From contig CM000207.1 of NCBI GenBank assembly GCA_000002445.1, forward strand, positions 640,001 to 704,000: a DNA stretch of 64,000 nt. Reading direction: 5' to 3'. Position numbers and translations under genes: made by a program. The stretch is from Trypanosoma brucei (Eukaryota). Of this stretch, positions 11,272-52,429 are shown piece by piece. The notes under the pieces were generated by a model that made no database searches, was not told the origin of the DNA, and worked only from the letters and a program-made list of their open reading frames with translations. Numbering within the stretch: position 1 is the stretch's first letter; the number at the start of each line of letters is the position of its first letter.

Positions 11272-13125
11272 GTTCGAAACGATAGACAATGCGTATAGAT
11301 TTGTATATGAACAGGGGCTTTCCCTCTCGTCGTATCCACGACTGCCTCCAATGTACCCGGTAAGGGAACACAATTTTTGGTTATTTCACTGTTGTGGAGC
11401 GGCGCCATTTAGTTCGAAAATGTTCTCCCCCCCTGAATAAAATGCATGCATGTGTTAGCTGTAGTACCTCTCTCGTTATATTTTGGAATTTACAAGCGCA
11501 GACTTACGACCACCACCCGGAGCTTCCGTTTGCTATCATTCTGCGATGTGCATGCAACAACGGGCTTGCGATGCGTCACGTGTTGATATTGTCTCAACGG
11601 CTCAACTCTCTGGGTCCCTTTTTTCCACCACTGCAGCAAGTAGTTTTATGTCCTTGATTAACAGGAATCATGGGGCCACACCCTCTTTCCCACTCCCGCA
11701 CCGTTGAGTCGTTTCTGCAAGCTTGTTACGAACACTCTGTAGACAAACAAAGGGTGGTATGTAAACGTATATATGTACCCCGGGAGCGCGTGCTCGTCGA
11801 GATTCGGTGACGGATGGAGGTATCGCAGCTAACCAGTGGCGTTGTGTTCCCTTAGCGGGGGGCAAAGTAAAACATCACCGCGAGAGGTGGTTGGACTCGA
11901 GGTAGCTGGGGAGGCGCGGCGCTGGAAAAAAAAGAGATCGTAGTTTGAAGGAGGGGGTGCAGTGGACACGGCAGGTTCGGCGAGAGAGTTGGGTCCCTTA
12001 TTCCGTGTGGAAGAAAGGGAAGACTCTCAAATTGTTGTCACTACCTCCGTAATTATGCATCGGGACATTGCTGGGTTCACTAACACCGTCATTTTCCTCG
12101 GGCCAGGCTCAAAGAAAAGGGGGGGGTCGGAGATACGGTTGACGATAGCACTTGGCGGCAATTGTTTTGCAGGTTGCACAGCTAGTCAGCTTGGGTCCTG
12201 ACGTGATGTGGAAGTGTGTCCCTTTTGTCTGCCACCGGCGTGAGGTCTCAACGTGACCTCGGCAGCCGTAACCGTAGAAGTGGGCGAATCGGGTGGAAGT
12301 TCCGAGTACTTTTGTCGTTTCGCGGGTTCACTACAAGGGACAGGATTCGACGTCCGCGGGTTCGCTTCTCGTCGTGTCCTGCTGTTTTGCTCAAACGATC
12401 TTTTTCCTACGGGTTCACAAGGTTGGCTGTTGCCACTCCGTAGCTACCAGGAACGTCTGTTGCGTTAATGAAACTTCTATGCACCTTTGCGATGCAGAAG
12501 CTGAGGTGAATTGGCTTTGGATCTGGTTACGATCGTAACCCACCAAGGTGCCCGGTTGTACGTCGGCTGATTGCGCATCTGCGTCCCCGTCATTTACCTA
12601 GAGTTACTGTGTTACGTGAAAAAAAGAGAGCTGTAGTTTGTGCCCCTGCTGCGCGATGAATGAGGGAGCTTCCCGGATGGAGAAAGTATCGAGTGCAGCG
12701 CCAGTTGGAGGGGAGGGAAAACCTCATGATTTTGTTCATCCATTGAGAATACTTGTGCCGTAATAAATGCTCACGTTTTTTCGCCCCTCACTACGGAGTT
12801 TTTCATACTTCACTGCTGTTGATGTCCTTTGTCCGACTGTTTGTTGTTCTCGGCACCCATATTACGCGCGGTGGTGTCTATACTGTAACTGAGCCATGCA
12901 GAGGTGCAATTCATCACCTTGCAACTGGCTAATGTCCTCACCTTATCCACCCCGTCATCTCCCGTAGCCTTTGTTTTGCTCGTTCACCTGGACAAGGGCC
13001 GGCGGCTTCCTCTTAAAGTGAAACAAGTTGTAAAAAAAAAAAGTGATTGTATAACTCTTTGAAACTCAACTTTCTCTTTTGGCTGTGAAAGAAGGTCGTG
13101 CGCAGTGTTCTTTCAAACTTTAACC

Positions 13126-16100
13126 ATGGCCACATCTCTTGTGCAGTTGTATTGCTACGACCTCAGCGGAGGGATGGCGGAGTCCATGAGCCTCATGTTG
13201 ATTGGGCGCCATTTGGAAGCAATATGGCACACTGGAATTGTTGTGTATGGAAAGGAGTACTATTTTGACGGCGGGGTTGGCATTGTTCACTCCTCACCCG
13301 GTGGATCTCACTTTGGCACGCCAAAACGGGTAGAAACACTCGGTACAACAACGAAAGGCGAAGGCGAGTTTCTTGAATGGGTTAAGCAGCGAAGGCTTGA
13401 TACATTTGGCCCAACACACTACAATCTCCTTAACCGAAATTGTAACCACTTCACGCAAGCGGCAGCGCAGTTTCTCGTAGAGCGTGACATTCCTAGTGAA
13501 ATCCGCGATATGATTCCCACTGTGCTGGATACTCCCCTTGGCCGCATGCTTAAACCCATGCTGGAAATGGCCACCAGAGGCTTGGAAGCATCCGCAAAGA
13601 CATCACAACTTTCTACTTCACCGCGGAAGAAAGTATCAAACACCACTGAAACGCCCACTGTGAGTGATTCCTCTACCTCCCTCGACGTTGCAACTGGCCT
13701 GAACTCGGAGAAATCTCATCTCTCAGTGGAGGAGCATGAAGAAGTAATGCTTGTCCGTGCGATGCTGCAGAGTAATGAATTGCTCTCGTCAGGGACGCGG
13801 GAAGGCTTTAACACGACGATGGGAGCACTTATCCTGCTTCGGATGGTCATAACAAATATCCTGAGGAATCCAACTCAACTCAAGTACAGGACGCTTTCTA
13901 CTCAAGATAAGGAGTATAAGTCGAAAATAGCACCTCTGGAAGAGTTTGGTGCAGCCGATATACTGCGTCTCTGTGGGTTCCGTCTGTTGCAGCACCCGAC
14001 GTTGAATCAAGCTGTGTGGTTCCTGAGTGATGCGGACGGCAGTGAAGATGTTCTGGCCATAATGGTGACCCACATCACCGAGTTGATTGAGTTGGTGGAA
14101 AGTGAGTATCAATCAGAGTTTTGCGCAGTAGAGGGAGATCCAAATATAGGGACTTTCCATAAAGAAAAATACCCAGTTCCCCCCCTTACGTCAAACGCGA
14201 GTGATCCAGGGGACAGGGCAATGGAGGTCATAATGCACGACGCTGTGAAACCTATCTCTTCGCTTGAAGACTTGATGAATTGGTCCCCTACATCACCTGG
14301 AGCAATTACCCCAGCAGCGCCGTGTCGCCGCCGCGTGCAGGCCAGTGTGGAAGATGGTCCGAGGCTTTTAATTTGCCATGACATGAAGGGTGGTTATCTT
14401 CCAACTGACTACGAGCACTTCGCTGTCTGTAATAGACTGATGAAGGGTGCATCAGCTCTCGTCCCGTCGGTGGTGAATTGTAGCTATACGGTGAGTTACT
14501 GGCATCATGTGGACTACTTTGTTTACTTTTCGCACAACTTCGTTACGGTTCCCCCAAAGGAGTGGATCAGCTACGCCCACCGCGAGGGGGTTCCAGCCCT
14601 TGGAACGTTTATTACCGAAGGCGAAAGCTTAACTCTTCGCAAGATTCTACATGATGCCCAAAGTTCGGCGTCCACCATTAGGAAGTTGGTGGATTTATGT
14701 GATGCACACAACTTTGATGGATACCTTATGAATATCGAAACAAATTTAGATGAAACCCTTGCAAAGCGCTTGATAACGTTCGTGGCTACGTTAAAGAAAT
14801 CCCTCAACAAATCGCGACCGCCTAACTCTGGGGAGCGCTTTGTATTCTGGTACGATGCTGTCACTGTGGAGGGAATCGTTTCGTATCAGAACGGTCTAAC
14901 GTCCAAGAATAAGCCCTTTTTTGATGTCTGCAACGGCTTGTTCACAAACTATGGCTGGAGACCGTACAGTCTCCCTTTATCCACTGCGATTGCGGGGCAA
15001 AGAAATCGCGATGTGTTTGTTGGTGTTGACATATTTGGCCGTGGTGTCTACGGAGGCGGAGGATACGATAGCCATAAAGCTGCAGACTGTGCATCTGGTG
15101 CAAAGCTTTCCATTGCCATTTTCGCGCCTGGTTGGACTTCTGAATGCGTAGGAAATGGCTGTCGCGAAAATTTTCAGCGTAACGACGCGCACATGTGGAG
15201 TAAAATGCAGGATATATGGACTACCAAGTATCTTGAGTTGGACACTTTGCCGGTATGGACGTGCTTCCTTGACGAAGTTGGAACACAATTCTTCGTGAAT
15301 GGAGCTCCCGTTTTGGGTTGCGTTTCCAATCAAAATAGCCTTGGAAGCGGTGTAAAGTGCAGTAATGATGACACTGATTTTTTTTTCCCTGAGTGGTGCC
15401 AAATTTCACAGACACACATAAAGCCTTGTTACAAGCTGGTGCGCGGTGGGGCGGAGGGGGATCCATGGTGTGTGCTGCCGTTCGAAGTGGTGGGTAAAGA
15501 TGGGTGCCACACCAATAAAGATGGACAGACTGTGCCCCTCGATTGGTCGACAAAACAGGTGTGGATGGGTAACCGTAGCATGAGCTTCGCCGCTCCGCCA
15601 AACGCTACCGTTCCACTTATGCGATGGAAGGTACGTCTTGAAGTCGGAGCAGCTGACGGTGAGAAGACGTCCGACGCGCTGGCGTTCCTTGACATTGCCT
15701 GGTTGTGTAACGCCGTAGATGCGCAAGCGCACTCCGTGCGCTGCGTGTGTGTCGAGGGTGTAAATGGCTCTTCCACGACACGGGTCGTGTTTGACGAGCA
15801 GCTTGCATCCCCAGAGAGAATAATTGTCGTAGCAACTGTGGGAAATTGGCAGATTGTTCGTTACGTAATTCCGGACAACGTTACATGGACGCACGTCACT
15901 TGTTTGTCGATACTAAACCCCTCTGAGAATGAATCACTTGTTTGCACTGTGGGTGGCGTTGCCCTGACTGAGCCGACATACGATAATTCCACCAGTGTGT
16001 TGCTTTTGGGGGATGCACAAATCTTGCCCTCAACTTCGTATACGGTGGACAAAACATCAGACCCAACCACATGCGTAGTCACACTTGACGTGCCGAATGA

Positions 16101-16281
16101 ACTGAGAAAAAAATCAAACAAGGTCATTCTGTTCGCGAAAATTGGGTTTCCGGGTGGAAAACTTCTGAGTGCGTACTTGGGAACGCATGAGATATCGAAG
16201 CAAATTCTGTTACCGTTGAATATACCGTCTGATGCTTTTGTTTACGAAATGTTCTTCTATGGATCAGCTTCTGGAAACTAA
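13126..16281 (+). CDS. Three-domain protein: N-terminal PPPDE (DeSI-type) cysteine peptidase + PUB (p97/VCP-binding) domain + GH85 endo-beta-N-acetylglucosaminidase (ENGase), 1051 aa
   Basis: First ATG 13126 (track start 13105 is GTG). PPPDE: HTGIVVYGKEYYFDGG (His) and YNLLNRNCNHFTQ (Cys). PUB: TMGALILLRMVITNILRNPTQLKYRTLSTQDKEYKSKIAPLEEFGAADILRLCGF. GH85: LLICHDMKGGYLPTD, WHHVDYFVYFSHNFV, FDGYLMNIETN (catalytic N-x-E). Confidence 0.85.
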   Translation: MATSLVQLYCYDLSGGMAESMSLMLIGRHLEAIWHTGIVVYGKEYYFDGGVGIVHSSPGGSHFGTPKRVETLGTTTKGEGEFLEWVKQRRLDTFGPTHYNLLNRNCNHFTQAAAQFLVERDIPSEIRDMIPTVLDTPLGRMLKPMLEMATRGLEASAKTSQLSTSPRKKVSNTTETPTVSDSSTSLDVATGLNSEKSHLSVEEHEEVMLVRAMLQSNELLSSGTREGFNTTMGALILLRMVITNILRNPTQLKYRTLSTQDKEYKSKIAPLEEFGAADILRLCGFRLLQHPTLNQAVWFLSDADGSEDVLAIMVTHITELIELVESEYQSEFCAVEGDPNIGTFHKEKYPVPPLTSNASDPGDRAMEVIMHDAVKPISSLEDLMNWSPTSPGAITPAAPCRRRVQASVEDGPRLLICHDMKGGYLPTDYEHFAVCNRLMKGASALVPSVVNCSYTVSYWHHVDYFVYFSHNFVTVPPKEWISYAHREGVPALGTFITEGESLTLRKILHDAQSSASTIRKLVDLCDAHNFDGYLMNIETNLDETLAKRLITFVATLKKSLNKSRPPNSGERFVFWYDAVTVEGIVSYQNGLTSKNKPFFDVCNGLFTNYGWRPYSLPLSTAIAGQRNRDVFVGVDIFGRGVYGGGGYDSHKAADCASGAKLSIAIFAPGWTSECVGNGCRENFQRNDAHMWSKMQDIWTTKYLELDTLPVWTCFLDEVGTQFFVNGAPVLGCVSNQNSLGSGVKCSNDDTDFFFPEWCQISQTHIKPCYKLVRGGAEGDPWCVLPFEVVGKDGCHTNKDGQTVPLDWSTKQVWMGNRSMSFAAPPNATVPLMRWKVRLEVGAADGEKTSDALAFLDIAWLCNAVDAQAHSVRCVCVEGVNGSSTTRVVFDEQLASPERIIVVATVGNWQIVRYVIPDNVTWTHVTCLSILNPSENESLVCTVGGVALTEPTYDNSTSVLLLGDAQILPSTSYTVDKTSDPTTCVVTLDVPNELRKKSNKVILFAKIGFPGGKLLSAYLGTHEISKQILLPLNIPSDAFVYEMFFYGSASGN

Positions 16282-17088: not shown

Positions 17089-17530
17089 GCTCGCCGTTAG
17101 TGAAGACGGTGTACTCTGGTGCCTGTGTTTGTGGTGACAATTCGCTGTTTCTAAAGCTACGAAACGAACTGGCTTGTTTGGTGGGTGTGGTATCTGCTAT
17201 TGTTCTTTGTGAATACGTGTTTGTCAATTACAAAATTTGGGTTTGGTGGTAGCTATGGAGTGGTAAATTATAATGGCGGTATTAATGGCAGCAGTGAAGT
17301 TGAAAATAACCTTGATGCGTTCTATTCCCTTCGTGTTTTCCCCATTTATTTGACTACCTCGCTCCTTTAATCAACGCTTTGTGCAGAGAAGCCGCACAAC
17401 GGTCTTCTAGGAAGTTGAAGTGCCTCCGTGTGCATTAAACAGTGGAGCCGGTAGAGGGGAGTAATACCGGGAGCACCTGTAGTTCCATTTGTTGTTGGTA
17501 TCTGGGCGGGTGCTGTCTCCGTCCCTGTCT

Positions 17531-18487
17531 ATGGCAATCGTCGGGGACTCGTTAAATAAGAGGCGCAACTACACCGTCTGCGGTCTTGTTAGCAACCCGT
17601 TGTTCCAGAAGTGCGCGGAGGTCGCTCAGTATGTGGCAGAAGAGTACAGTGATGAATTTTATGTAGATATATTCCGTGAGATGCCTTGCGAGTTCTACAG
17701 TCGTAGAGAGCAGCTGTTAAACAGTAAGAAGATAGAGGACGGTGGAATGGAGGTCATCGTCCTTGTGGGCGCCGATGGGCACACCGGCCCCACCAACGGA
17801 GAGGGCGAGGCAATGTCCGGGGATGACTTCCTGAACATGATGCAGAAGGCAACTTGCTTTCGAGTTCTTAACATCCCACCCGAGAGACCTGACTCTTACG
17901 AAAATATGGCGCATCTTTCGTGGAAGAATTACCTTCGGGAGCGGGGGAACACTTACTGCTGGATGGAAATAAGCATTGGTGAGATGGTCCACGGGCGCGT
18001 TACGTTTGAACTTTACTCGCGCGTAGTGCCCCACACCTGCAGCAACTTCTGGCACCTCTGTAAGGGCGACCTGAGTCGGGATGCGGACGAGGGAGAAGAG
18101 CAGGTGCCAATACTAAGCTACAAAAATTCAACCTTCTTCCGCACTTTGCATGGAGCGTGGGTGATGGGCGGTGACATCAGTGGAGGGAATGGTCGGGGTG
18201 GATATTCCATTTACGGTCGTTACTTCCCGAATGAGTCTTATGCCATTCCCCACGATAGGGTTGGGGTGCTTGGAATGTGCAATGACGGCGGAGACACCAA
18301 CGCATCTTCTTTTTACATCACAATGAAGGCCATGCAATGGATGAACGGCCGCTACGTGGCGTTTGGCCGTGTGGTCGACGGCTTGGAAGTCGTACATGCT
18401 ATCCACGCAGTAGATGTAAAACACAATCAGTGTCCGAAAAAGGTGATAACCATAAGTGACTGCGGTGTGATTGACCTTACAGAGTGA
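17531..18487 (+). CDS. Cyclophilin-type peptidyl-prolyl cis-trans isomerase with ~150-aa N-terminal extension, 318 aa
   Basis: First ATG 17531 (track start is TTG). C-terminal cyclophilin fold: VTFELYSRVVPHTCSNFWHLC, FFRTLHGAWVMGGDISGGNGRGGYSIYGRYFPNE, LGMCNDGGDTNASSFYIT, WMNGRYVAFGRVVDG. Confidence 0.85.
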   Translation: MAIVGDSLNKRRNYTVCGLVSNPLFQKCAEVAQYVAEEYSDEFYVDIFREMPCEFYSRREQLLNSKKIEDGGMEVIVLVGADGHTGPTNGEGEAMSGDDFLNMMQKATCFRVLNIPPERPDSYENMAHLSWKNYLRERGNTYCWMEISIGEMVHGRVTFELYSRVVPHTCSNFWHLCKGDLSRDADEGEEQVPILSYKNSTFFRTLHGAWVMGGDISGGNGRGGYSIYGRYFPNESYAIPHDRVGVLGMCNDGGDTNASSFYITMKAMQWMNGRYVAFGRVVDGLEVVHAIHAVDVKHNQCPKKVITISDCGVIDLTE

Positions 18488-19204
18488 TTAGAGGTGCTTT
18501 AGAAACTGTAGACGGGGAAAGTGAGATAGGGAAAAGATGGGAGTGTTGTTATGCGGAGAATTTCTTTGACAGCCTTCGTCCTGACCCGGCTTGCCAAGCT
18601 TTTCATTTTCTCATCTAATGTGCATGTCTTGGAAATCGCTCTCGGTTGGCGGCCCGTCCTTTCTAAACTTCTTCTTTTCACGTGCTTCAACCCCCCCTTT
18701 CTGTCCCTTCCTGGCTTCATGCTCACACAGGGTCGACGGCCCTCTTGTACATAAAGCGTCACGGGTGGAACTAATGTGTTTCTTTCTTTGAGCAGGTTTG
18801 TCAACTGTTGCGTCCCCTCTGGGAGGTGGAAACTGCAGAAAGCCATCAGAAGGAGAAGGGACAATGGACGAGAGTGCGGGGGGGGGGGAGAAATAAAAGT
18901 GTGTATGCGCAATGAGGCGGATAGAAGGACTGAAAAGGGATCCATTGGGGAAGGGGGCATCGTTTACTGTTTCCACGGAGTGATGTAAACCTCACAAGAT
19001 ACTTTGGGTCTTGTGTGTGGGAGCGTATGTATAAATAACTCGATTGGTGGCACATTCAGCAGGTCCACTACTATTAATCGCAGGGTGATTTATCCTGTTC
19101 ACACAACGCGCCCCTTACTCTCGTTCCCTTGCCTACCAACCCCATCTTTTCGTTTTTTTGCGTGTGCACCGCACGCGCGGAAGTCCTTCTTTTGCATTAC
19201 CGGG

Positions 19205-21595
19205 ATGGGAAGGAAGGATGACGCCATTAAAAAGTTAATATCGCTTAATTTTAGTAAAAGCAAGGCAACAGAAGCACTTAAGGAGGCTAATGGAGACTTT
19301 GACGTTGCCCTGAGAATTTTGCAGAACAAAAAAGTGAAAGAACAACAGGTTCCGGTGAAATCATTGGCAGAAAAGCCAAAGTTGAGCGGTAATGATGACC
19401 GCGTGGGTGACGGTGGTGAGGTGAAGCAAAGGAAACACCCGTGTATAGTGCAATACAAAAAATGCCAATATGGAAAGTTCTGTCGACTTCGTGACTACCC
19501 GGGTGATGTCTGCATCAACTACTTCAATGGTACTTGCTTGTATGGAAACTTCTGCAAGAGACGACACTATGTTGATGGAGTAGACATACGGGCCGACCAA
19601 CGTCCGGAGACAAGTAGTGGAATAGTTAAGCACCAGTCGGGCACCATCCGTATATCCAGGTCATGTGGCAATGGGGTGTTTGTTGGGGATGTGATACAGT
19701 GTGTTGACGAGGAATCGTCTTCCCAGCTTGCCGGTGCAACTCCTGAGCCATGCCGCTTTAATCTCATCCAGGGCTCGGAACCTACGTATACGGATCCCAG
19801 AGCTCTAGATTGGCAGTCGCGTGCTACTTCCGTCATCGGTACCACCCCAACTCCATTCTTGGATGCAGTAAGGCAAAATGCGCAGAAACAGGCTTTCGAA
19901 GAGGTCGCACCAACCTCTCCCGTCCCACTTTCAGTAACTTCTAGGGCTATCTCAAGGAATAAACACCCCTGTATAGCGCAGCGCGGTTGCTGTAAATACG
20001 GAAAGAACTGCCTTCATGCAGACAGGGACGCAGACGTTTGCGTGTTCTTTCTGAACGGAAGATGTGCGAGGGAAGGTTCCTGCAAGTACCGACATGAAAG
20101 CGATGCGGAATATTTGAGACGTGTTCGACCTGATTTATGGGGTGGAGGCTGCGATGACGCTAGCCAAGGCGGCGAGACGGTACCACTAACCGCCGAGAAG
20201 GTGTTGAAGGATGTGACAAGAGCGCGGTGGTGTCAAGCTGATGATGGGGAGGTTAAGGATGGGGAAAGATACCAACAAACCGGTGTTTCCCTCTCGGATT
20301 TTCTTCCGACCGCGCGTGTGGACGACGCACCCGAGGGCGGTACCCAGCGGGGGGAGCACGATGAAGATTCGATGGCACCTGACCAAAGCGGGGACAATGA
20401 GTTTGCCTCGCTTCTGAGTTTGATTGATGCGTTCCCAAGCGCCGAACCATATTTGTTGCTGCACGCCCTTCGCTGCGCTGACGGTAATCCCCATTACGCC
20501 GCCGACGTCATAAACCGAGTGAGTAATATTGATTCCACTGAGGATATCGATCTTTGCTTCCTAGCAAGCCGCTTGGAAGACGAGGATGAGGAGAGAGAGG
20601 CCGCAATCCGGGACAAACACGAGTGGTTTCTCACACTCTGCACGCTGTTTCCAGGCGTAGACACACCGTCGATTCAAGCGGTGTTGGATCGATGTGGAGG
20701 GGAATACGGAGAGGCCTACGACATTTTGCTTTGCCAAAGTGGTTCAGTAACAGCGAAGGCTTATGGGACCGCCTGGAGCGGTAAAGTTAAGGGAAGCGAA
20801 GAGGCTCGCGTGGAGAAGTTGTGCGGCATGTACCCGGGACTTCCCAAGGACGTGGTACAGAATGCCTTCGGGACTGCTGATGGCAATTTTCTCGTGGCAA
20901 GCGGTATATTGAATGATATGACCAAAGATATGTTGGTGGCGGGAGACGTTGTTGCTGATAGCCACCCCTGTCCGGCTCGCGGAAAGGTTGTTGTTACGAC
21001 GAAGCGAACGTCCGAAGAAGATGAACCGAAGAAGGTGTCGTTCCAGTTTCCGGTGAGCAGCCCATCACGCGAGGAAGTGGAGGCGTTTTACAACAGTGTG
21101 AAGAACGAGGTACGAGAGCTTGGTGATTGGCGACGGGTGCGAGAGCAGGCGTATATCATCAACAGTTGTCGTATCCGCGTGCTCAAGCACGCTGCAGCGG
21201 CATACCGACGTGGTGACGGCGAAGCCGCCAAGACTCTTAGTCGTCATGGGAAAGAACTTGGTGCCCAGTATCAGCGTCTCAACCGCATTGCGATGGTCGC
21301 ACTGGAGCGGGAGCGTCTGTATAGTAGCCCAGTCGTCACGCTTGACCTCCATGGCTTCCACGTTGAGGAGGCGATCGAGGTAGTGCGACGTCGTGTGAAG
21401 TTGTGCCAGCAGAAAGGTGTGAGGAACCTGCAAATTGTCACTGGCAGTGGCAAGCACAGCCGTGGCGGGAACTCTGCCCTTCACTCCGCAGTGCTGAAGC
21501 AGCTTCAGGAGGATACGCAACTAGACGGCATCGTTAAAATCGGGTCAATAAAACCTGCTTTTTTTGACGTTCAAATTGCACCGCGGCGTAAGTAA
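19205..21595 (+). CDS. UBA + 2x CCCH zinc finger + CUE-like domains + DUF1771 + Smr-domain protein (N4BP2/Cue2-like), 796 aa
   Basis: Track ORF starts at TTG 19004; first ATG 19205 (MGRKDDAIKKLISLNF...). UBA: AIKKLISLNFSKSKATEALKEANGDFDVALRIL. CCCH: C-x8-C-x5-C-x3-H in HPCIVQYKKCQYGKFCRLRDY and HPCIAQRGCCKYGKNCLHADR. CUE-like: FASLLSLIDAFPSAEPYLLLHALRCADGN, LFPGVDTPSIQAVLDRCGGEYGEAYDIL, LCGMYPGLPKDVVQNAFGTADGNFLVASGIL. Smr: LDLHGFHVEEAIEVV...LQIVTGSGKHS. Confidence 0.8.
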   Translation: MGRKDDAIKKLISLNFSKSKATEALKEANGDFDVALRILQNKKVKEQQVPVKSLAEKPKLSGNDDRVGDGGEVKQRKHPCIVQYKKCQYGKFCRLRDYPGDVCINYFNGTCLYGNFCKRRHYVDGVDIRADQRPETSSGIVKHQSGTIRISRSCGNGVFVGDVIQCVDEESSSQLAGATPEPCRFNLIQGSEPTYTDPRALDWQSRATSVIGTTPTPFLDAVRQNAQKQAFEEVAPTSPVPLSVTSRAISRNKHPCIAQRGCCKYGKNCLHADRDADVCVFFLNGRCAREGSCKYRHESDAEYLRRVRPDLWGGGCDDASQGGETVPLTAEKVLKDVTRARWCQADDGEVKDGERYQQTGVSLSDFLPTARVDDAPEGGTQRGEHDEDSMAPDQSGDNEFASLLSLIDAFPSAEPYLLLHALRCADGNPHYAADVINRVSNIDSTEDIDLCFLASRLEDEDEEREAAIRDKHEWFLTLCTLFPGVDTPSIQAVLDRCGGEYGEAYDILLCQSGSVTAKAYGTAWSGKVKGSEEARVEKLCGMYPGLPKDVVQNAFGTADGNFLVASGILNDMTKDMLVAGDVVADSHPCPARGKVVVTTKRTSEEDEPKKVSFQFPVSSPSREEVEAFYNSVKNEVRELGDWRRVREQAYIINSCRIRVLKHAAAAYRRGDGEAAKTLSRHGKELGAQYQRLNRIAMVALERERLYSSPVVTLDLHGFHVEEAIEVVRRRVKLCQQKGVRNLQIVTGSGKHSRGGNSALHSAVLKQLQEDTQLDGIVKIGSIKPAFFDVQIAPRRK

Positions 21596-21949: not shown

Positions 21950-22741
21950 ATGTCCACCAGCAGCCGCGGTATTTTGATTGCCGGGTTGACGAACCGTGCT
22001 CGAACACAGATGGCGGAGGGTATTCTCCGTCGACTGACAGCGGGAACCATATTTATAAAGAGCGGCGGTGTGCATCACGAGTCAACCATACATCCGCTTG
22101 CAGTTAAAGTCATGAAAGATATCGGCATTGACATTAGCAAACAGTCTGTGACGTCACTCGAAGCCGCACGCAGGCAACAGAACACGTACGACGTATACAT
22201 TAGCATTGACTGCAGTTACGAGCGGCGAACACTGGATAAATCGCAACCACCACGTGCGGAGGTTCGGCGTCGGGAGAGTTTCACCGTAGAATATGGAGAC
22301 GACGGTAGTGGTCCCAGAGGCGGCGATGACCCGGTGCGTTACGACCCGCTACTAGTTCCGCGCACCCCATCTCACTGGAGTGTTGGTGTTGACGCAACCG
22401 ACGTGCGGCGTCGCTGGCAGATATGGAGTCCCCGGGACCCCTCCATATTTCATGAAACCTCCACGCGGAAGTTTCAGGATCACTTATACGAAGGGGAGCC
22501 ACTCTTCATGCAGTTACGACAATGCCCTTGGAGAACTCAGGCGAAAGTTTCTGAGCGATGGGAGATGGATGAAGTGGCAATACGATATCCTGTGGAGCGT
22601 CATAGCGCACATGAGCTTCGTTTTGTGCAGGCGCGCGAGCAGCTGTTGCAGAGGTCTTTCGATCTGCTCACAAAACTTGAGAAGCATTATGGTGAAAGGC
22701 TCCTGCTTGACAGAGCGCTACTGGAGGAATTTATTTCATAG
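21950..22741 (+). CDS. ArsC / low-molecular-weight PTP-fold protein lacking the catalytic cysteines (predicted pseudo-phosphatase/arsenate-reductase), 263 aa
   Basis: ATG 21950. N-terminal ~90 aa align to Bacillus/Staphylococcus ArsC (IIYFLCTGNSCRSQMAEG...AVKAMKEVGIDISNQ vs ILIAGLTNRARTQMAEG...AVKVMKDIGIDISKQ), but both P-loop cysteines (CTGNSCRS) are G and A here. Confidence 0.7.
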   Translation: MSTSSRGILIAGLTNRARTQMAEGILRRLTAGTIFIKSGGVHHESTIHPLAVKVMKDIGIDISKQSVTSLEAARRQQNTYDVYISIDCSYERRTLDKSQPPRAEVRRRESFTVEYGDDGSGPRGGDDPVRYDPLLVPRTPSHWSVGVDATDVRRRWQIWSPRDPSIFHETSTRKFQDHLYEGEPLFMQLRQCPWRTQAKVSERWEMDEVAIRYPVERHSAHELRFVQAREQLLQRSFDLLTKLEKHYGERLLLDRALLEEFIS

Positions 22742-47400: not shown

Positions 47401-48600
47401 TGGTGGGAACGAGAAGAACACATGCACGCATCCGAGCCCGAGAATGTACAAAGGCGGTTAGCTGACTTGGGAAAAAGAAGGACTCCACGCCAGTCGGGCA
47501 CTAACCAGGGCGATTCGCACTTCTTCTCCTACCCATTTAGGGGCGATAATGAGTTGGAGGATGGATCGTACACTCTTTGGCCATCTGATCCCACTCCGCC
47601 CACAGGTGTGGACACGGGGGTGTGGGAAGAGCCACTGGAAGCAATGCGTCGAGAAATGTGGAGACTCGCTGGCCACCCCTGCGTGGACTCTGGCGATGGA
47701 AACACAGAGCAGAATCCTCGGCCACTTCATGCGCATATGAGCAAAGGGGGTGGTGGGGGTTGGAGGGAGAGGTTTTCAAGCTGGACGGTTGCTGGTGATG
47801 CGATGTTTTGTGCCCCACTTGCCGAGGAGGGTGATAGGAAGTACCAACCCCCTGTGCCGTACAAGACCGGCCCAGGATTCTTGGTTCCGCGCTTAAGGTT
47901 AGGATGTGCGAGGCTCGGGGCCACGCACGGCGCGGTAAGGAGCAACTCCTGTGAGGAGATTTTGGAGTATCTAAGACGGCTTCAGCCACCGGAGTACTCC
48001 AGGGACCTCGCGTGTCTGACACCCAGAGTCTTCAGATACGATTTTGGAAGCACAGTTTCTGACGCTAGACGGAACGTGCGGGAGGGCGTCTCTCAGGTCA
48101 AACACCATCTGCAAAGTGCGTTGTTTAATCAGGGGTTCTCCAGCGAAATACTACCGTACGCAACTGCTGCGAGGCGCTTGCAGCATGGGGGAGCCCTGCC
48201 CACGTGGATGCGTGAGGCGGTGGTGATGCTCCGAAGGGAGGAAAAGGACCGAAACCAAAAGATGGCCAAACTTATCTTCCAGAAGGTGGCAACAAATATC
48301 CGTACAAGAAGTATATTGAAGCGCGTGTGTCGGGGATCTGCTTTCGCCGCCTATCTGGTTGTTATGTGGGAGAAATGGATGGGAGGGTGGGAGAAACGCT
48401 GCGAGGCGTTACGGCATACACAGAAGGAAAGTTTGGGGCGCGTTATGGACATGGTGGTGAATGGTTTTAATGTAGTGCCACAGCAGCTCCGCGGGCCACT
48501 TGAGACACAGGAGTCTCCGTGGGTAGACGCGAGGAGGACACTCAAAGGCGCGAGCAGCTACCACTTCAGAGATGCACGGATCCCCTCGAAGGACAAATGA
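44500..48600 (+). CDS. Large hypothetical coiled-coil protein with Gln/Arg/Glu/Trp-rich low-complexity segment, ~1366 aa
   Basis: Track ORF starts at GTG 44395; first ATG 44500 (MAQCFGSDYVLGKAK). N-terminal coiled coil; low-complexity QERQRERERQRWQKQEEQCQGQDRLWKQGREQWQREGRGGGGGQWWEREEH near 47270..47420. Confidence 0.55.
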   Translation: MAQCFGSDYVLGKAKPSDGERWNLLERVYADYEEMNAQQQEIAARKRELDMEFYDGNIEKIEEALHFNENRRGSREGDWDTYEKVEHIVKKFVYCRAGRVFKASEVQEVLEERIRLLGDIEASQKQRITALETTLSSVQSELAEVTRLLCMSEARAKALKAECVANTMKARQLQRVCDGLRGSGKKDESEVFRDMRLLIEANRQMEKDCQKLRVALNMGPVSAKKQKTVKAAQRVRARPVVAHSMSNSRNGSMVETLLTHTEKVGELKSEETLEANIESKADVVTDASQKQTKTLPQLTALTGDAEKSVSAAQSAVRADDGAPASVENSLVVCGGNGLCEVSLEGKPGDETLKFMSQPNITGSFPDLDQSQRDVSVSRTMSSKAIYKLERIQERASTLAEEVPLSDALMRAFIKCEKLQELMEWEVGRSMAMLDYDANVSHKHVSFHSACVGASKKFSQDASCGEERDMSMVFSGREVAGMPGESLNTSNSHLSPAAGASRTAVLQGSGVSPMSTLIGNQTSFFTTTQDATRTLTSLSGDLGHPLHSLMGQVLPNGLLTASQNSGYTEMSSAAARELAETGGGNVDFNDPGMPIQGMETSYKNGLLPHHAAVVLSTRKNLAVEDVGGLSTRIRTAALSGSDVSGASEGGWNQVGSREGSECSQLVYSSEDGDSDSETHHLGRWVDSPSQLSDEAPFEGVGVENANTRAKKYSARGSDRSNISFAGSRRSAHRSAASRLTSAATKGRTRNSTVSLATEQRLSARTKRRAARGGVKVNSAFRALSKEVSTLRDACHNMINEMNEMFDVMGKCVDALEKHSGTGQQVAATRTKQALSAVVKEVVKGVAEQEVLDRLGKQGIVLERHPESPNLTDEQWMQNRLYDAIMKSTSEHVDRALVQKGERPSKSLCGSRRSSLSALDQKQEGQERQRERERQRWQKQEEQCQGQDRLWKQGREQWQREGRGGGGGQWWEREEHMHASEPENVQRRLADLGKRRTPRQSGTNQGDSHFFSYPFRGDNELEDGSYTLWPSDPTPPTGVDTGVWEEPLEAMRREMWRLAGHPCVDSGDGNTEQNPRPLHAHMSKGGGGGWRERFSSWTVAGDAMFCAPLAEEGDRKYQPPVPYKTGPGFLVPRLRLGCARLGATHGAVRSNSCEEILEYLRRLQPPEYSRDLACLTPRVFRYDFGSTVSDARRNVREGVSQVKHHLQSALFNQGFSSEILPYATAARRLQHGGALPTWMREAVVMLRREEKDRNQKMAKLIFQKVATNIRTRSILKRVCRGSAFAAYLVVMWEKWMGGWEKRCEALRHTQKESLGRVMDMVVNGFNVVPQQLRGPLETQESPWVDARRTLKGASSYHFRDARIPSKDK

Positions 48601-49745
48601 CGTGATTTGATGTGTACGCGTTTGCGGTGTGGACCTCAATCATGCGTCAGCAAACGTGCCCCGCCGGCGTTGGCAATATGTATTGGCTGCAACCCTCAGG
48701 TAGCATTCGCCAACTCACTCACCAACGTGAGTGTGCTTGTTTTTGTGTAACAAAAAGAGTATGTACATTTAGTTGAAGTTAGTAAACAGGAAGGGTGTGC
48801 GCGGAGTCTCATAGTGTAATTAGTAGTATGGCACACAAAAGCACTTTGGAAACGTGTGGGCGACGCACCCGTGTAAACAAGAAGTAACCGATTGCGGTTC
48901 CATGCGATGGCGGTAGGGTCGATATCATTATCAATACTATTTTTGTTTTTCGTTGTAGCTACGTCTATTCCCAATTTTCTGCTTCCCACCTTGTTTCCTC
49001 GCTGGTTTCTTTGCGCTTTGTGGTAGAGGGGAAAAGCTTCTCCCGGAGAATGGTTTTGCCACCCTTCCGCTATACGCTCACCTTACTACTTCCAGTTTCT
49101 TACTGTTATTGTGTGCGCACGTGCTCGGTACCTTTGTCCCCTTTTCCCCTGTGTATCTATCTTTAATCGGTGCACAGTTACGCCATCCCATCTTGTGGAA
49201 TTCCCTCCCCTTTGAATTAAATGCAAGATGACAGTTAGCCTTCCATTGCTCTGCTTGGTGACTGCTGCCTTTTCATACGGTGGAAGAGCTTCACCGACGA
49301 ATGAAGTTTTTCACCCCTTGGACTTACCCCTGGCCTTGTTGAAGGACTGCCAAGCACGTCCGTACGCCGTCAGGGCGTCGTCTGAAGCAGATTGCGTTAC
49401 CCGATAACAGTGAAGCTCCTGATCAACAGGGCTGCTGTGCACGGAGGGGAATGGCTATGCCGGATGATGTGGCACCTGTGCTTTAGTGTGGTGGCACTGC
49501 TCTTGCAGTTTCTGGAGCTCAGCCACTTGCGAGTTAAGAGCCAATGTCGCTAAAAAGGGGCAGGTGACAGTAGGGTGGTCGACGCTCAACTTGTTGATGG
49601 TTGTAGGAAACCAAAAGGGTGGCTTTGGCGGCCTAATGGAAGTCCGAAACGCTTCGATGGGACCCGAGTGAAATACGCATTGACAAGCGTCCAAGTTAGT
49701 GGGGAAGCCAAAACCGTCAACGAGGACATTGCACCCAACCCACCC

Positions 49746-51353
49746 ACCCCCCCCCCGCGCTCTCCCACACAACCACACGTGCACGCATTGGGTGTCGCTC
49801 GTTTCGGATAGCAGCGCCCCTCTGTGTTTGATGGCGCGCGCTCTCGGGTGTTTGGGCGTCCTGGACAGTCACGCGCATACAAAGGATATGCACAATCCCC
49901 GACATTCCCATTGCGTTCTGAGGCGTTTTTCCAACTCGTTCCTTGTCCAACCCTTTCTACAGATTTTTTTCCCCGTCGCATGAGCAACCCACGTTAATCG
50001 TTGGAACGATACCGCATCACTGCCCGGGCGTATCACTGGGCGCCAAACGTTTATCCACCACGCGAGGTATGAGCTGTTCCGACTAAACTTCACATTATGT
50101 GTGTGTGTGTAGGGGGCGACGACTCCTCATGATTTGCTCTATTCTGCACCAACCGCGTCTCTCATTCGGTTGATGCAGTCGCTCAGCCATCCCAGATATC
50201 ATCCGAACCGTTTCGTTGCGCCAGAAGAAAAACCAAGCGGGAAATTTCTCTTGTCTCCGCGCCGCCTCCATATCTTTCCTAGCAGAAGGGGTATGAGAGA
50301 AAGCGTTGATACCGTGCGTGACGGCCCTCAAACTGCTGCGTTAAAATTGAAGTATTCACCGCTGATGCCTTTTGAATCGACAACTATATCACGGTATTAG
50401 TGCCGCACGGAGGGTGTTCCGGTTGTAGACCCGCCCCCGTAGCCGGGTAATTAGTTTCAATAAAAATTAGAGCAATAGAAAACATAATGCACTTATAGGG
50501 GCATATTCCTAACGAGCTGCACCGATCCCTTCTCCATATAGGGCGAAGGACGTTACCTTTTATACGTGTTGGTTCCGCCTTTAAAGAAAAGAGGGACGAT
50601 GCGAATTTGTTGAACGTCTCTAACCCGGACCCCACCCTTTGCCTTGTATGCCGTTTCTTTTAGAGGCCTTTCAAGCACAATCTTCATTGCAGCCCTCCCT
50701 CCTCGGAAGTCACGTGGCAGCTTACCGATCCTTCTGCGTAACTCAGCCGTCTTTCTGCCTTATCAAATATGAAAGTTTCTCCACCGCTCGGCATATCCAA
50801 TTCAGCAGAACCTTCTGTTCAGGTTTGGTGGTGGATGGCAACGGACACCTCTATTTTTCTCTTCGCACGGCGCATCTTCCCTCAGCCCACTCGAGGGATA
50901 GGGCCGTGCTTGCAACCCCGAAAACGATCCACACTAAGCTTTCCTTTTGCGGTAAGTCTTCCCCACTTTGTTACACTAACACTTGGCAGCATCCAATTCG
51001 TTATGCATAGGGTAGTCCAGAAGGTCCGGCTTTTCTTATGACTTCACTGAATGTTTAATCGACGGCTTCCCATTTCAGGTAACATTCCACTCCCCTCTTG
51101 CAAACTACACCCCTAACGATGATCAGCTGAGCCAACTCAACCGCATCTTCCCCGCTCTCTCCACCCGTCACGCCTGTGATCATGTTGGTTACTTGCCGTC
51201 GTGACCCCACCGCATTCTTCCAAAAAAATGAGGGAAAATGTGGCGGTGCTCGATTCCCTGCATGATCGTTTCCCTGCCGCTCCGAGTCGGGGTGTACGCA
51301 GTGCTCGGGCTATTGAATCCCACACTGTCGAGAAAGGAGTTCTCAATCTGAGG
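49746..51353. repeat. Copy B (reverse complement) of the >=1.6 kb repeat at 1..1615; probably continues beyond 51353
   Basis: See copy A. Inner boundary at a C-run (49760..49769), complementary to the G-run ending copy A. Positions 51330..51353 are the reverse complement of window 1..24, so the repeat is only as long as the window allows on the left. Confidence 0.85.
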
Positions 51354-52429
51354 AGCGGGCGTGCTACACCTTTAAATTTCCTTTGAGGAAGCTTCGCTGT
51401 GGACACGAAAGTTTGACGGTTAAGCCCAGTGCTTTCGTTGTACATTTTTCTTTTACCTTGTTTTCAAATACCTTGACGCTCAGTGAGTATCGGGTTGCTG
51501 CCGCAAACAAATACTCTCTTTCCCTGTAAATTCCTCCGCGAAAAAAGGCTTTGTATGCTTCGAACCACTGGCAAGATGTTACTGAAGACGGGGCCTTAAT
51601 GAACGATGGTCAGCCCCCGGGTGCACCATTGTCAGGTTGGTCATGGGAAACTAATACTGGAAGTCCGGCATTCTTTTAATGCAACTGCTGTTCACCCACA
51701 GTTGTAATCATCGTAGTTGAACCGAACAGCAATCTCCGCGGAAACTCGCTTGATAGCGACTCTTCTCGATATCCAGTTGCTGCTGCCAATGCTCGCCGTC
51801 CTTTTGGGAGTGAACTGTTGACGGATACCGTTACGTAAGAGACAACTCCAAATACTTAAATTCGTGGGCGGCAGCATGTGATCCAGCGAATCCAAAGCAT
51901 GAGCTTGATGCACCAATGCGACTAGCACAAGCCGGCACTCCCCCAGCGCTTCGGGTTCCAAGCAGCTGCCGCAGGTGGCCGTTGTCTAAGGCTTTGGTTG
52001 TAGCCCATTTTCTTGCTCGCGTAGTTTGTTGTCTAAAAGGCAGTGGAGCCTTTGGCTGATAGTTCACTCCATCAACTTTCGCACCCGGTGGTGGTTGTTT
52101 CCGGCCAAAATTATGCTTTCTCAGTAGCTGGTGTGTTCACCATCAGAACTGGTATGACGATCCCACGTCCCTACTTTCCCCGAACTTTTCTACTCTGCAG
52201 ACACCGGCCGCCCAACTACCCTGGAGACCACAGCCCGCCAACCCCAACTGCGTCAGCCGCTCACAGTGTGTGCCGCCCTCTCCCGCCGGAAATCCTTTCA
52301 GCTCCTCCAAATACTGCAACCGTCCCGCTTGGTAGATGGGGATGTCCCCCGGCACTGGACACCTGAGTTTTCGGAACTTCACGAAGTGGTTGCGGGTTGA
52401 TAACATTGAGTAAGCAGGGGACGGTTACC

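What the first reader, a model, noticed from the sequence alone, without database searches (positions are those of the whole stretch)
19205..21595. UBA - 2xCCCH - 3xCUE-like - DUF1771 - Smr protein: candidate ribosome-stalling (no-go decay) endonuclease
CUE plus Smr is the architecture of yeast Cue2, C. elegans NONU-1 and human N4BP2, the endonucleases that cleave mRNA at collided ubiquitylated ribosomes. This protein adds an N-terminal UBA and two CCCH RNA-binding fingers. That gives four or more ubiquitin-binding modules plus RNA-binding fingers in front of the Smr nuclease domain (LDLHG...TGSGKHS). In an organism that controls gene expression almost entirely post-transcriptionally, such a nuclease is a notable candidate regulator.
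Basis: partly seen in the sequence, partly recalled or inferred. Interest (0 to 1): 0.6.

Follow-up and report, generated by a model that had tools for sequence, protein, structure and literature searches.

The report
Trypanosome ZC3H27: known ubiquitin-linked Smr RNase
The gene is real and built as described, but it is the already named Trypanosoma brucei zinc-finger protein ZC3H27, whose Leishmania counterpart (LdCSBP) was reported years ago to be a ubiquitin-regulated RNA-cutting enzyme; only its proposed role at stalled ribosomes is still untested.

Summary
The ORF at 19205..21595 (+) is real and encodes 796 aa. It is identical to T. brucei TREU927 XP_803648.1. By mass (87.94 kDa), finger class and chromosome it is ZC3H27 (Tb927.9.3460).

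The described architecture holds:
- DUF1771 and Smr score above Pfam cut-offs.
- LDLHG and GxGxHS are invariant in 14 kinetoplastid orthologues and align to the human N4BP2 Smr domain.
- Each CCCH finger sits in a larger, duplicated "HC6H" module.
- The N-terminal UBA and three CUE-like modules are weak in T. brucei alone. Orthologue scores, profiles and predicted folds support them.

The no-go-decay reading is reasonable by homology. The nearest non-kinetoplastid relatives are CUE-DUF1771-Smr proteins of the Cue2/NONU-1/N4BP2 kind.

Kramer 2010 equates ZC3H27 with L. donovani CSBP. LdCSBP is reported to bind the CAUAGAAG cycling element, to have Smr RNA endonuclease activity, and to be inhibited by its own ubiquitination. 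The NONU-1 paper already notes CCCH-fused NONU-1 homologues.

I rate it already known, with low-to-moderate interest. The open question is whether it acts at collided ribosomes in trypanosomes.

The parts
19205..21595 (+). Complete CDS of T. brucei ZC3H27 (Tb927.9.3460 / Tb09.160.2090), 796 aa plus stop
   Evidence: ORF and translation. Exact match to XP_803648.1/EAN76436.1. 87.94 kDa and two 7/5-class CCCH fingers match the 87.96 kDa entry for ZC3H27 in Kramer 2010 Table S1.
19111..19183 (+). Pyrimidine-rich tract followed by AG, a candidate trans-splice acceptor 22 nt upstream of the ATG (inferred only)
   Evidence: Read directly from the sequence. No transcript data.
19205..19345 (+). N-terminal UBA-type three-helix module (aa 1-47)
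   Evidence: Pfam UBA 18.5-19.7 bits, below cut-off. The Neobodo orthologue scores 27.8 bits, above cut-off. AF2 gives helices 2-13, 18-27 and 32-47 at pLDDT about 90. Mud1 UBA aligns to aa 7-38 by sequence at E 0.11; a Mud1 UBA chain matched the full-length model at TM 0.91, rmsd 0.4 A.
19436..19567 (+). HC6H zinc module 1 (aa 78-121), including the canonical C-x7-C-x5-C-x3-H finger at aa 103-121
   Evidence: Regex. H78, C80, C87, C93, C103, C111, C117 and H121 are invariant in 14 orthologues. pLDDT about 82. 45% identical to module 2.
19964..20095 (+). HC6H zinc module 2 (aa 254-297), including the CCCH finger at aa 279-297
   Evidence: Regex. H254, C256, C263, C269, C279, C287, C293 and H297 are invariant. 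Aligns to the tandem CCCH fingers of CPSF30 at E 1.4e-4.
20387..20518 (+). CUE-like module 1 (aa 395-438): UBA-fold three-helix bundle with an FP motif and no di-leucine
   Evidence: The T. cruzi segment scores 22.6 bits on Pfam CUE, above cut-off; the T. brucei segment does not score. The family profile finds nothing significant in PDB sequences. hhalign to module 2 gives 96%. AF2 pLDDT 90; the top 11 fold hits are UBA, CUE or UBA-like HBS1L domains, and UBA/CUE domains dominate the rest.
20612..20740 (+). CUE module 2 (aa 470-512): LFP...DILL, the most canonical of the three
   Evidence: Pfam CUE 16 bits in T. brucei and 33.3 bits in L. donovani. Family profile hits Vps9 CUE at E 0.006.
20792..20929 (+). 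CUE module 3 (aa 530-575): MYP...ILN. It forms a conserved unit with DUF1771-Smr
   Evidence: The T. cruzi segment scores 24.3 bits, above cut-off. Family profile hits Tollip CUE at E 1.5e-4. hhalign to module 2 gives 95%. Many distant homologues match from about this module through Smr.
21131..21316 (+). DUF1771, the helical N-extension of the Smr domain (aa 643-704)
   Evidence: Pfam E 1.3e-13, 51.5 bits against a cut-off of 28.7. AF2 gives two long helices, 642-668 and 672-706.
21341..21577 (+). Smr domain (aa 713-791)
   Evidence: Pfam E 1.8e-10, 41.3 bits against a cut-off of 25.7. phmmer to N4BP2 Smr 2VKC at E 1.1e-7. Foldseek top hits are Smr domains of N4BP2, MutS2 and YdaL, plus MutS2 and SmrB on disomes.
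21344..21352 (+). DxH motif, D714-L715-H716 (putative catalytic residues)
   Evidence: Invariant in 14 orthologues. Aligned with the LDLHG of N4BP2. The role of DxH in Cue2 and NONU-1 comes from PMC6598757 and 10.1101/674358.
21443..21460 (+). GxGxHS motif, G747-S748-G749-K750-H751-S752
   Evidence: G747, G749, H751 and S752 are invariant. T746 and the x position vary.

Best explanation
This is T. brucei ZC3H27, the orthologue of Leishmania donovani LdCSBP. It is a kinetoplastid-wide member of the eukaryotic DUF1771-Smr (NONU-1/Cue2/N4BP2-type) endoribonuclease clade.

Proposed mechanism:
1. Two duplicated HC6H zinc modules hold mRNA. In Leishmania the reported target is the CAUAGAAG cycling element.
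2. The C-terminal Smr domain cuts the RNA using the D714-x-H716 and G747-x-G749 surface.
3. Four UBA-fold modules (one UBA, three CUE-like) make the cut depend on ubiquitin. They could dock the enzyme on ubiquitylated 40S subunits of collided ribosomes, as in Cue2. They could also fold back on ubiquitin attached to the protein itself and switch it off, as reported for LdCSBP.

Shown here: the gene's identity, its domain architecture, motif conservation and its phylogenetic placement. Taken from the literature on the orthologue: RNA binding, RNase activity and inhibition by ubiquitination. Inferred: that the T. brucei protein behaves the same way, and that it acts on ribosome-bound mRNA.
For: - Identity: exact match to XP_803648.1 on a 3.06-Mb T. 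brucei TREU927 contig. The mass and finger class equal the ZC3H27/Tb09.160.2090 entry, whose L. major orthologue is LmjF01.0210. Tb927.9.3460 is named ZC3H27 in PMC6648352.
- LdCSBP link: Kramer 2010 equates ZC3H27 with CSBP. The full-length L. donovani orthologue lies on a ~299-kb contig and carries LDLH and TGQG, the motifs tabulated for LdCSBP.
- LdCSBP biochemistry, from secondary sources.
- Smr: Pfam above cut-off, N4BP2 Smr at E 1e-7, fold hits, DxH and GxG invariant.
- Ubiquitin-binding-type modules.
- Clade placement: a profile of aa 395-796 finds 1897 proteins. All full-length members down to about 1e-34 keep two HC6H modules; most, though not all, also keep the Smr motifs. The next tier is CUE-DUF1771-Smr, for example in Thecamonas.
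Against: - No experiment on the T. brucei protein was found in the held literature.
- The LdCSBP primary papers could not be read, so the biochemistry is second-hand and comes from one laboratory.
- The T. brucei UBA and CUE segments are individually below Pfam thresholds.
- The residue at the x of GxG is Ser748, where N4BP2 has Arg; Cue2 R402, which contributes to cleavage, is described as belonging to this motif.
- I could not check whether T. brucei has other DUF1771-Smr proteins that might carry the ancestral surveillance role.
Confidence: 0.6

Rival explanations
1. One reading: a dedicated no-go/non-stop decay endonuclease. Its CUE/UBA modules recognise ubiquitylated 40S proteins on collided ribosomes and its Smr domain cleaves the mRNA at the collided ribosomes. 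It would be the functional Cue2/NONU-1 orthologue of trypanosomes, with the zinc fingers only adding general RNA affinity.
For: The CUE3-DUF1771-Smr unit matches CUE-DUF1771-Smr proteins across eukaryotes. Four UBA-fold modules match the published Cue2 layout. DxH is invariant. [quoted passage not shown] Smr domains of MutS2 and SmrB bound to disomes are among the fold hits.
Against: There is no ribosome, collision or Hel2/ZNF598 evidence for any kinetoplastid member. The only biochemistry on an orthologue reports sequence-specific cleavage and self-ubiquitination. Invariant duplicated HC6H modules argue for a specific RNA-recognition role beyond general affinity. The Arg position of the N4BP2 TGRG motif is not conserved.
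Confidence: 0.3
2. The LdCSBP model taken literally: a sequence-specific mRNA decay factor for S-phase transcripts that carry the CAUAGAA(G) cycling element. It would be kept off by its own mono- or poly-ubiquitination, which the internal UBA/CUE modules bind in cis. No ribosome would be involved.
For: LdCSBP is reported to bind CAUAGAAG, to be ubiquitinated, to cleave RNA through its Smr domain, and to show only sequence-specific RNA cleavage as a full-length protein, with ubiquitination inhibiting the activity. The HC6H motif is shared with ZC3H39/40, the orthologues of Crithidia CSBPA/B, which were purified on the same octamer. CAUAGAN is reported as the most conserved trypanosomatid regulatory motif.
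Against: The evidence is in vitro and from one group, and I could not read the primary papers. In Crithidia, mRNA cycling persists without CSBPA/B and is attributed to CSBPII, so octamer binding does not prove a cycling role. The model does not explain why the CUE-DUF1771-Smr unit is conserved across eukaryotes that lack the element.
Confidence: 0.25
3. A DNA-nicking or DNA-repair Smr protein, as first described for MutS2 and N4BP2/B3BP, acting in the nucleus or kinetoplast.
For: Smr domains of MutS2, YdaL and B3BP nick DNA, and the isolated LdCSBP Smr domain cleaves both DNA and RNA. One source labels an orthologue 'DNA-nicking Smr family endonuclease'.
Against: Full-length LdCSBP is reported to cleave only RNA. 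The protein has no MutS, kinase or other DNA-repair domains. CCCH-type fingers are typically RNA-binding. The source label is an automatic name.
Confidence: 0.04
4. A catalytically silent scaffold that links ubiquitylated proteins to mRNAs, with the Smr domain serving only as an RNA- or ribosome-binding fold. This would resemble B. subtilis MutS2, which splits ribosomes without cutting mRNA.
For: B. subtilis MutS2 uses its Smr domain for collision binding without mRNA cleavage (PMC10897456, listed). A Novymonas family member has lost GxGxHS.
Against: DxH and GxG are invariant in the 14 aligned orthologues, whereas DxH is lost in non-cleaving MutS2 clades. RNase activity is reported for LdCSBP.
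Confidence: 0.06

Closest known systems
Leishmania donovani LdCSBP (mRNA cycling sequence binding protein; orthologue group ZC3H27 / LmjF01.0210)
   Same: Same orthologue group and the same full-length architecture: UBA, two CCCH/HC6H modules, CUE, DUF1771 and Smr. Identity is 33% over 99% of the length. Both have the LDLH motif and TGxG (TGSG here, TGQG in L. donovani).
   Different: The T. brucei protein is untested. It is shorter (796 aa against 828-898 aa). Its UBA and CUE modules are more divergent and fall below threshold in Pfam.
S. cerevisiae Cue2, C. elegans NONU-1 and human N4BP2 (eukaryotic DUF1771-Smr surveillance endonucleases)
   Same: An Smr domain of the LDxH/TGxG subfamily with the DUF1771 N-extension, preceded by several CUE/UBA modules. 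It aligns directly to the N4BP2 Smr domain (E 1e-7) with DxH and GxGxHS conserved.
   Different: It adds two invariant HC6H zinc modules. It lacks the P-loop kinase of NONU-1 and N4BP2. The x of GxG is Ser, not Arg. No link to collided ribosomes has been shown.
Crithidia CSBPA/CSBPB, equivalent to T. brucei ZC3H39/ZC3H40
   Same: They share the kinetoplastid HC6H zinc module, reported binding to the same CAUAGAAG octamer, and a connection to ubiquitin.
   Different: ZC3H39/40 are 31-46 kDa proteins with one HC6H module and a U-box. They have no UBA, CUE, DUF1771 or Smr domains and regulate respiratome mRNAs. They are a different family.
CCCH-DUF1771-Smr proteins of other eukaryotes (for example Capsaspora owczarzaki XP_004365379)
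   Same: The same principle: RNA-binding CCCH fingers fused upstream of DUF1771-Smr.
   Different: They carry ordinary tandem CCCH fingers rather than HC6H. They are shorter, have no N-terminal UBA and fewer or no CUE modules. The fusion may be independent.

Membership tests
Kinetoplastid ZC3H27 / LdCSBP orthologue group | Sequence identity with the annotated T. brucei gene product | tested here: met
   Exact full-length match to XP_803648.1/EAN76436.1/Q38FI4. 87.94 kDa against the listed 87.96 kDa, and two 7/5-class CCCH fingers.
Kinetoplastid ZC3H27 / LdCSBP orthologue group | Full-length collinear orthologues with UBA, two HC6H modules, CUE, DUF1771 and Smr in Trypanosoma, Leishmania and a bodonid | tested here: met
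   Orthologues cover 98-100% of the length at 31-45% identity. All zinc ligands and the Smr motifs are invariant. Neobodo has the same architecture.
Kinetoplastid ZC3H27 / LdCSBP orthologue group | The L. donovani orthologue is the protein published as LdCSBP | tested here: inconclusive
   Kramer 2010 equates CSBP with ZC3H27. The published LdCSBP motifs LDLH/TGQG match P0013/P0009. The LdCSBP accession and primary papers could not be read.
Kinetoplastid ZC3H27 / LdCSBP orthologue group | Binds the CAUAGAAG cycling element; Smr RNase activity inhibited by ubiquitination | not testable with these tools
   Biochemical properties, reported only for the Leishmania protein.
Cue2 / NONU-1 / N4BP2 (DUF1771-Smr surveillance endonucleases) | Smr domain with the DUF1771 N-extension | tested here: met
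   Pfam DUF1771 scores 51.5 bits and Smr 41.3 bits, both above cut-off. N4BP2 Smr at E 1.1e-7. Smr fold hits at probability 1.0.
Cue2 / NONU-1 / N4BP2 (DUF1771-Smr surveillance endonucleases) | Conserved DxH catalytic motif | tested here: met
   D714-L-H716 is invariant in 14 orthologues and aligned with the N4BP2 LDLHG.
Cue2 / NONU-1 / N4BP2 (DUF1771-Smr surveillance endonucleases) | GxG motif, including the basic residue corresponding to Cue2 R402 | tested here: inconclusive
   G747 and G749 are invariant, but x is Ser748 and is Arg in only 2 of 14 orthologues. K750 and R753 lie nearby.
Cue2 / NONU-1 / N4BP2 (DUF1771-Smr surveillance endonucleases) | Ubiquitin-binding CUE/UBA modules upstream of Smr | tested here: met
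   Each of the three segments passes the Pfam CUE cut-off in at least one orthologue. Family profiles hit the Vps9 and Tollip CUE domains. Predicted folds are UBA/CUE-like. Actual ubiquitin binding is untested.
Cue2 / NONU-1 / N4BP2 (DUF1771-Smr surveillance endonucleases) | Acts on mRNA at collided, ubiquitylated ribosomes (no-go or non-stop decay phenotype) | not testable with these tools
   No held paper links trypanosomes to this pathway.
MutS2-type DNA-nicking Smr proteins | MutS core/ATPase domains N-terminal to Smr | tested here: not met
   No MutS domains in Pfam. Only the Smr fold is shared.
CSBPA/B (ZC3H39/40) | A single HC6H module plus a U-box, about 31-46 kDa | tested here: not met
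   No U-box in Pfam. The protein is 88 kDa with two HC6H modules. Kramer Table S1 lists them as separate genes.

The most novel reading that the evidence does not exclude
ZC3H27 could be a 'programmable' no-go-decay nuclease. The ancestral collision-sensing CUE-DUF1771-Smr enzyme would have acquired sequence-reading HC6H fingers in kinetoplastids. Ubiquitin-dependent cleavage on ribosomes would then be directed preferentially to mRNAs carrying CAUAGAA-type elements. In an organism without transcriptional control, this would turn a quality-control nuclease into a regulator of cell-cycle or other regulons.
Probability: 0.12. Interest if true: 0.6.

Novelty: already known. Interest (0 to 1): 0.3.

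Why it matters
Trypanosomes regulate genes almost entirely after transcription, yet no endonuclease for translation-coupled mRNA surveillance has been defined in them. ZC3H27 is the obvious candidate. It also carries an RNA-reading module that Cue2 and NONU-1 lack.

Showing that it cleaves at collided ribosomes would extend the Cue2/NONU-1 pathway to a deeply divergent eukaryote. Showing instead that it is a cycling-element-directed nuclease gated by ubiquitin would confirm the LdCSBP model. Either result would reconcile the 2007-2014 LdCSBP biochemistry with the post-2019 no-go-decay picture.

As a sequence finding it adds nothing that is not already in the annotation and the literature.

Tried and rejected
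- A word-index homologue search with the 157-aa DUF1771-Smr region returned nothing, not even the protein itself. One search was wasted. The full HMMER representative search replaced it.
- The profile of CUE-like module 1 against PDB sequences gave only noise: NUB1 UBA at E 0.67 and RuBisCO. I therefore do not call it a CUE domain by direct sequence evidence. I rely on its homology to module 2 and on its predicted fold.
- The whole-protein Foldseek search gave no E-value at or below 0.001 because the multi-domain model is long and has low pTM (0.26). I used only the per-domain target-normalised TM scores and probabilities.
- The primary LdCSBP papers (PubMed 21315716 and 17559572) are not held.
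- Literature searches for Cue2, DUF1771, NONU-1, N4BP2 or ZNF598 together with Trypanosoma found nothing relevant.
- I considered and rejected membership of MutS2-type DNA-repair proteins (no MutS domains) and of CSBPA/B, i.e. ZC3H39/40 (no U-box; separate genes).
- I could not determine whether T. brucei encodes other DUF1771-Smr paralogues. The representative library carries no organism names, and no T. brucei proteome could be searched.
Full report
**Observation**

The window is Trypanosoma brucei brucei TREU927 DNA. An ORF runs from 19004 to 21595 on the + strand. That Met aligns with the start Met of all 13 orthologues collected. A pyrimidine-rich tract (~19111-19159) followed by an AG at 19182-19183 lies just upstream, as expected for a trans-spliced trypanosome gene. 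This last point is read from the sequence only and is an inference. The protein is an exact, full-length match to XP_803648.1/EAN76436.1/Q38FI4, on a 3.06-Mb contig.

**Domain checks**

Pfam puts DUF1771 (aa 643-704, 51.5 bits, cut-off 28.7) and Smr (aa 713-772, 41.3 bits, cut-off 25.7) clearly above threshold. UBA, CUE and CCCH are below threshold in the T. brucei sequence itself.

- **Smr.** The region aligns to the solved Smr domain of human N4BP2 (2VKC, E 1.1e-7), with LDLHG and TGxGxHS in register. An AlphaFold2 model built on 14 orthologues has a confident alpha/beta domain at aa 712-791. Its best structural matches are Smr domains: N4BP2, Thermus and Deinococcus MutS2, E. coli YdaL, and MutS2 and SmrB bound to collided disomes.
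- **Motif conservation.** In the 14-sequence alignment L713, D714, L715, H716, G717 and G747, G749, H751, S752 are invariant. The "T" of TGxG is V, I, L or M in most orthologues. The x is Ser748 in T. brucei and Arg in only two orthologues. The corresponding N4BP2 motif is TGRG, and Cue2 R402, described as part of the GxG motif, contributes to cleavage. I could not align Cue2 itself, so this point stays open.
- **Zinc fingers.** Two C-x7-C-x5-C-x3-H fingers lie at aa 103 and 279. Each is the second half of a longer H-x-C...C...C...C...C...C...H ("HC6H") module, aa 78-121 and 254-297. All 16 putative ligands are invariant. The two modules are 45% identical, which indicates an internal duplication. 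Module 2 aligns to tandem CCCH fingers of CPSF30.
- **N-terminal UBA.** Residues 1-47 form three helices at pLDDT about 90. The T. brucei sequence is below threshold for Pfam UBA, but the Neobodo orthologue passes at 27.8 bits. Mud1 UBA aligns to aa 7-38 by sequence at E 0.11, and a Mud1 UBA chain matched the full-length model at TM 0.91 and 0.4 A.
- **Three CUE-like modules.** In T. brucei only the middle segment scores on Pfam CUE (16 bits against 21.1). Each segment passes the cut-off in at least one orthologue: segment 1 in T. cruzi (22.6 bits), segment 2 in L. donovani (33.3 bits) and segment 3 in T. cruzi (24.3 bits).
  - Family profiles searched against PDB sequences hit the Vps9 CUE (E 0.006) for segment 2 and the Tollip CUE (E 1.5e-4) for segment 3. 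Segment 1 hit nothing significant.
  - Segment 1 is nevertheless homologous to segment 2 (hhalign 96%), and segment 2 to segment 3 (95%).
  - Modelled alone, segment 1 reaches pLDDT 90. Its top 11 structural matches are UBA, CUE or UBA-like HBS1L domains at about 1 A, and UBA/CUE domains dominate the rest of the list.
  - From the sequence, only segment 2 has both hallmark CUE motifs (LFP and a di-leucine, DILL). Segment 3 has MYP...ILN, and segment 1 has AFP with no di-leucine. That these motifs are the ubiquitin contacts is my own knowledge of CUE structures and was not tested here.

**What the gene is**

It is not. The calculated mass (87.94 kDa) and the two 7/5-class fingers match the entry [quoted passage not shown] in Table S1 of Kramer et al. 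2010. Trenaman et al. [quoted passage not shown]

Kramer et al. equate ZC3H27 with CSBP of L. donovani. They describe its UBA and CUE domains and its ubiquitination. Reviews summarise the LdCSBP work of Bhandari, Guha and Saha (2007, 2011, 2014) as follows:

- It binds the CAUAGAAG cycling octamer.
- It has two CCCH motifs, UBA and CUE domains.
- Its isolated Smr domain cleaves both DNA and RNA.
- Ubiquitination inhibits the RNase through an interaction among domains.

The published LdCSBP motifs (LDLH, TGQG) are those of the L. donovani orthologue recovered here, which lies on a ~299-kb contig. I could not read the primary papers. The equation of LdCSBP with this orthologue therefore rests on Kramer 2010 and the motif match.

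The Crithidia proteins CSBPA and CSBPB are a different family (ZC3H39/40, with a U-box). They share only the HC6H module.

**Phylogenetic placement**

A profile of aa 395-796 was searched with HMMER against 1.84 billion representative proteins. It found 1897 proteins at E<=1e-3 and 33 at E<=1e-30. Every full-length member of the top tier keeps two HC6H modules, and most also keep the Smr motifs. This tier includes the bodonid Neobodo designis, so the architecture appears to predate trypanosomatids.

The next tier lacks HC6H. Many of these hits match from about CUE module 3 through DUF1771 and Smr. Examples are a Thecamonas trahens protein with a 72-bit CUE hit and a protein with two CUE domains before DUF1771-Smr. 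This is the Cue2/NONU-1/N4BP2 kind of protein.

CCCH-DUF1771-Smr fusions also occur elsewhere, for example in Capsaspora. [quoted passage not shown]

**Mechanism**

I commit to a ubiquitin-gated mRNA endonuclease. The HC6H modules bind mRNA, the Smr DxH/GxG surface cuts it, and the four UBA-fold modules couple the activity to ubiquitin.

Two versions compete and are not mutually exclusive:

- **Cue2-like docking on ubiquitylated collided ribosomes.** Clade membership supports this, as does the published Cue2 layout of CUE-D1, CUE-D2, UBA, CUE-D3, SMR.
- **Cis auto-inhibition with sequence-specific targeting.** This is the LdCSBP model. The only biochemistry on an orthologue supports it.

No held paper tests either version in T. 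brucei. A DNA-nicking role and a catalytically dead scaffold are minor alternatives.

**Verdict**

I rate novelty as already known and interest at 0.3. The score is driven by a testable open question, namely whether ZC3H27 is the trypanosome no-go-decay nuclease and whether its fingers direct that nuclease to particular mRNAs.

Noticed in passing
window 13105..16281 (+): A single 1058-aa ORF combines a PPPDE/Peptidase_C97 domain (aa 13-153), a PUB domain (aa 236-309) and a glycoside hydrolase family 85 (ENGase) domain (aa 460-706). This is an unusual fusion of a deubiquitinase/deSUMOylase-type peptidase, a p97-binding module and a cytosolic deglycosylating enzyme.
   Followed up: no
window ~48600..54000: GC skew turns negative in the 50-54 kb bins, whereas it is positive everywhere else. 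No ORF of 200 aa or more lies between 48600 and 52776. This could be a strand-switch or another non-coding feature inside an otherwise + strand polycistron.
   Followed up: no
window 19565..19591, ~19760..19801, 19844..19861, 21122..21145 (aa 121-129, ~186-199, 214-219, 640-647): Short motifs in otherwise disordered linkers are conserved across the ZC3H27 family and have no assigned function: H-x-VDGVDIR directly after HC6H-1, FNLIxGSEPxxTDP, PTPFLD, and GDWRRVRE at the start of DUF1771. They are candidate partner- or ribosome-docking motifs.
   Followed up: no
P0042 (Novymonas esmeraldas KAK7199865.1), Smr region: This family member keeps both HC6H modules and LDLH but has lost the GxGxHS motif (VYGIQTRS). 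It may be a degenerate or paralogous, nuclease-impaired copy.
   Followed up: partly
window 19205..21595 compared with T. b. gambiense and T. b. equiperdum orthologues: The orthologues in T. b. gambiense DAL972 and one T. b. equiperdum assembly are 789 aa, against 796 aa here and in T. equiperdum SCU69842.1. This implies a 7-residue indel or a start-site difference within the brucei group.
   Followed up: no
window 17489..18487 (+) and 21950..22741 (+): The flanking genes on the same strand encode a cyclophilin-type peptidyl-prolyl isomerase with a long N-terminal extension and a 263-aa protein with a weak low-molecular-weight phosphatase (LMWPc) domain. They have no evident functional link to ZC3H27, and in polycistronic trypanosome units adjacency does not imply one.
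   Followed up: partly
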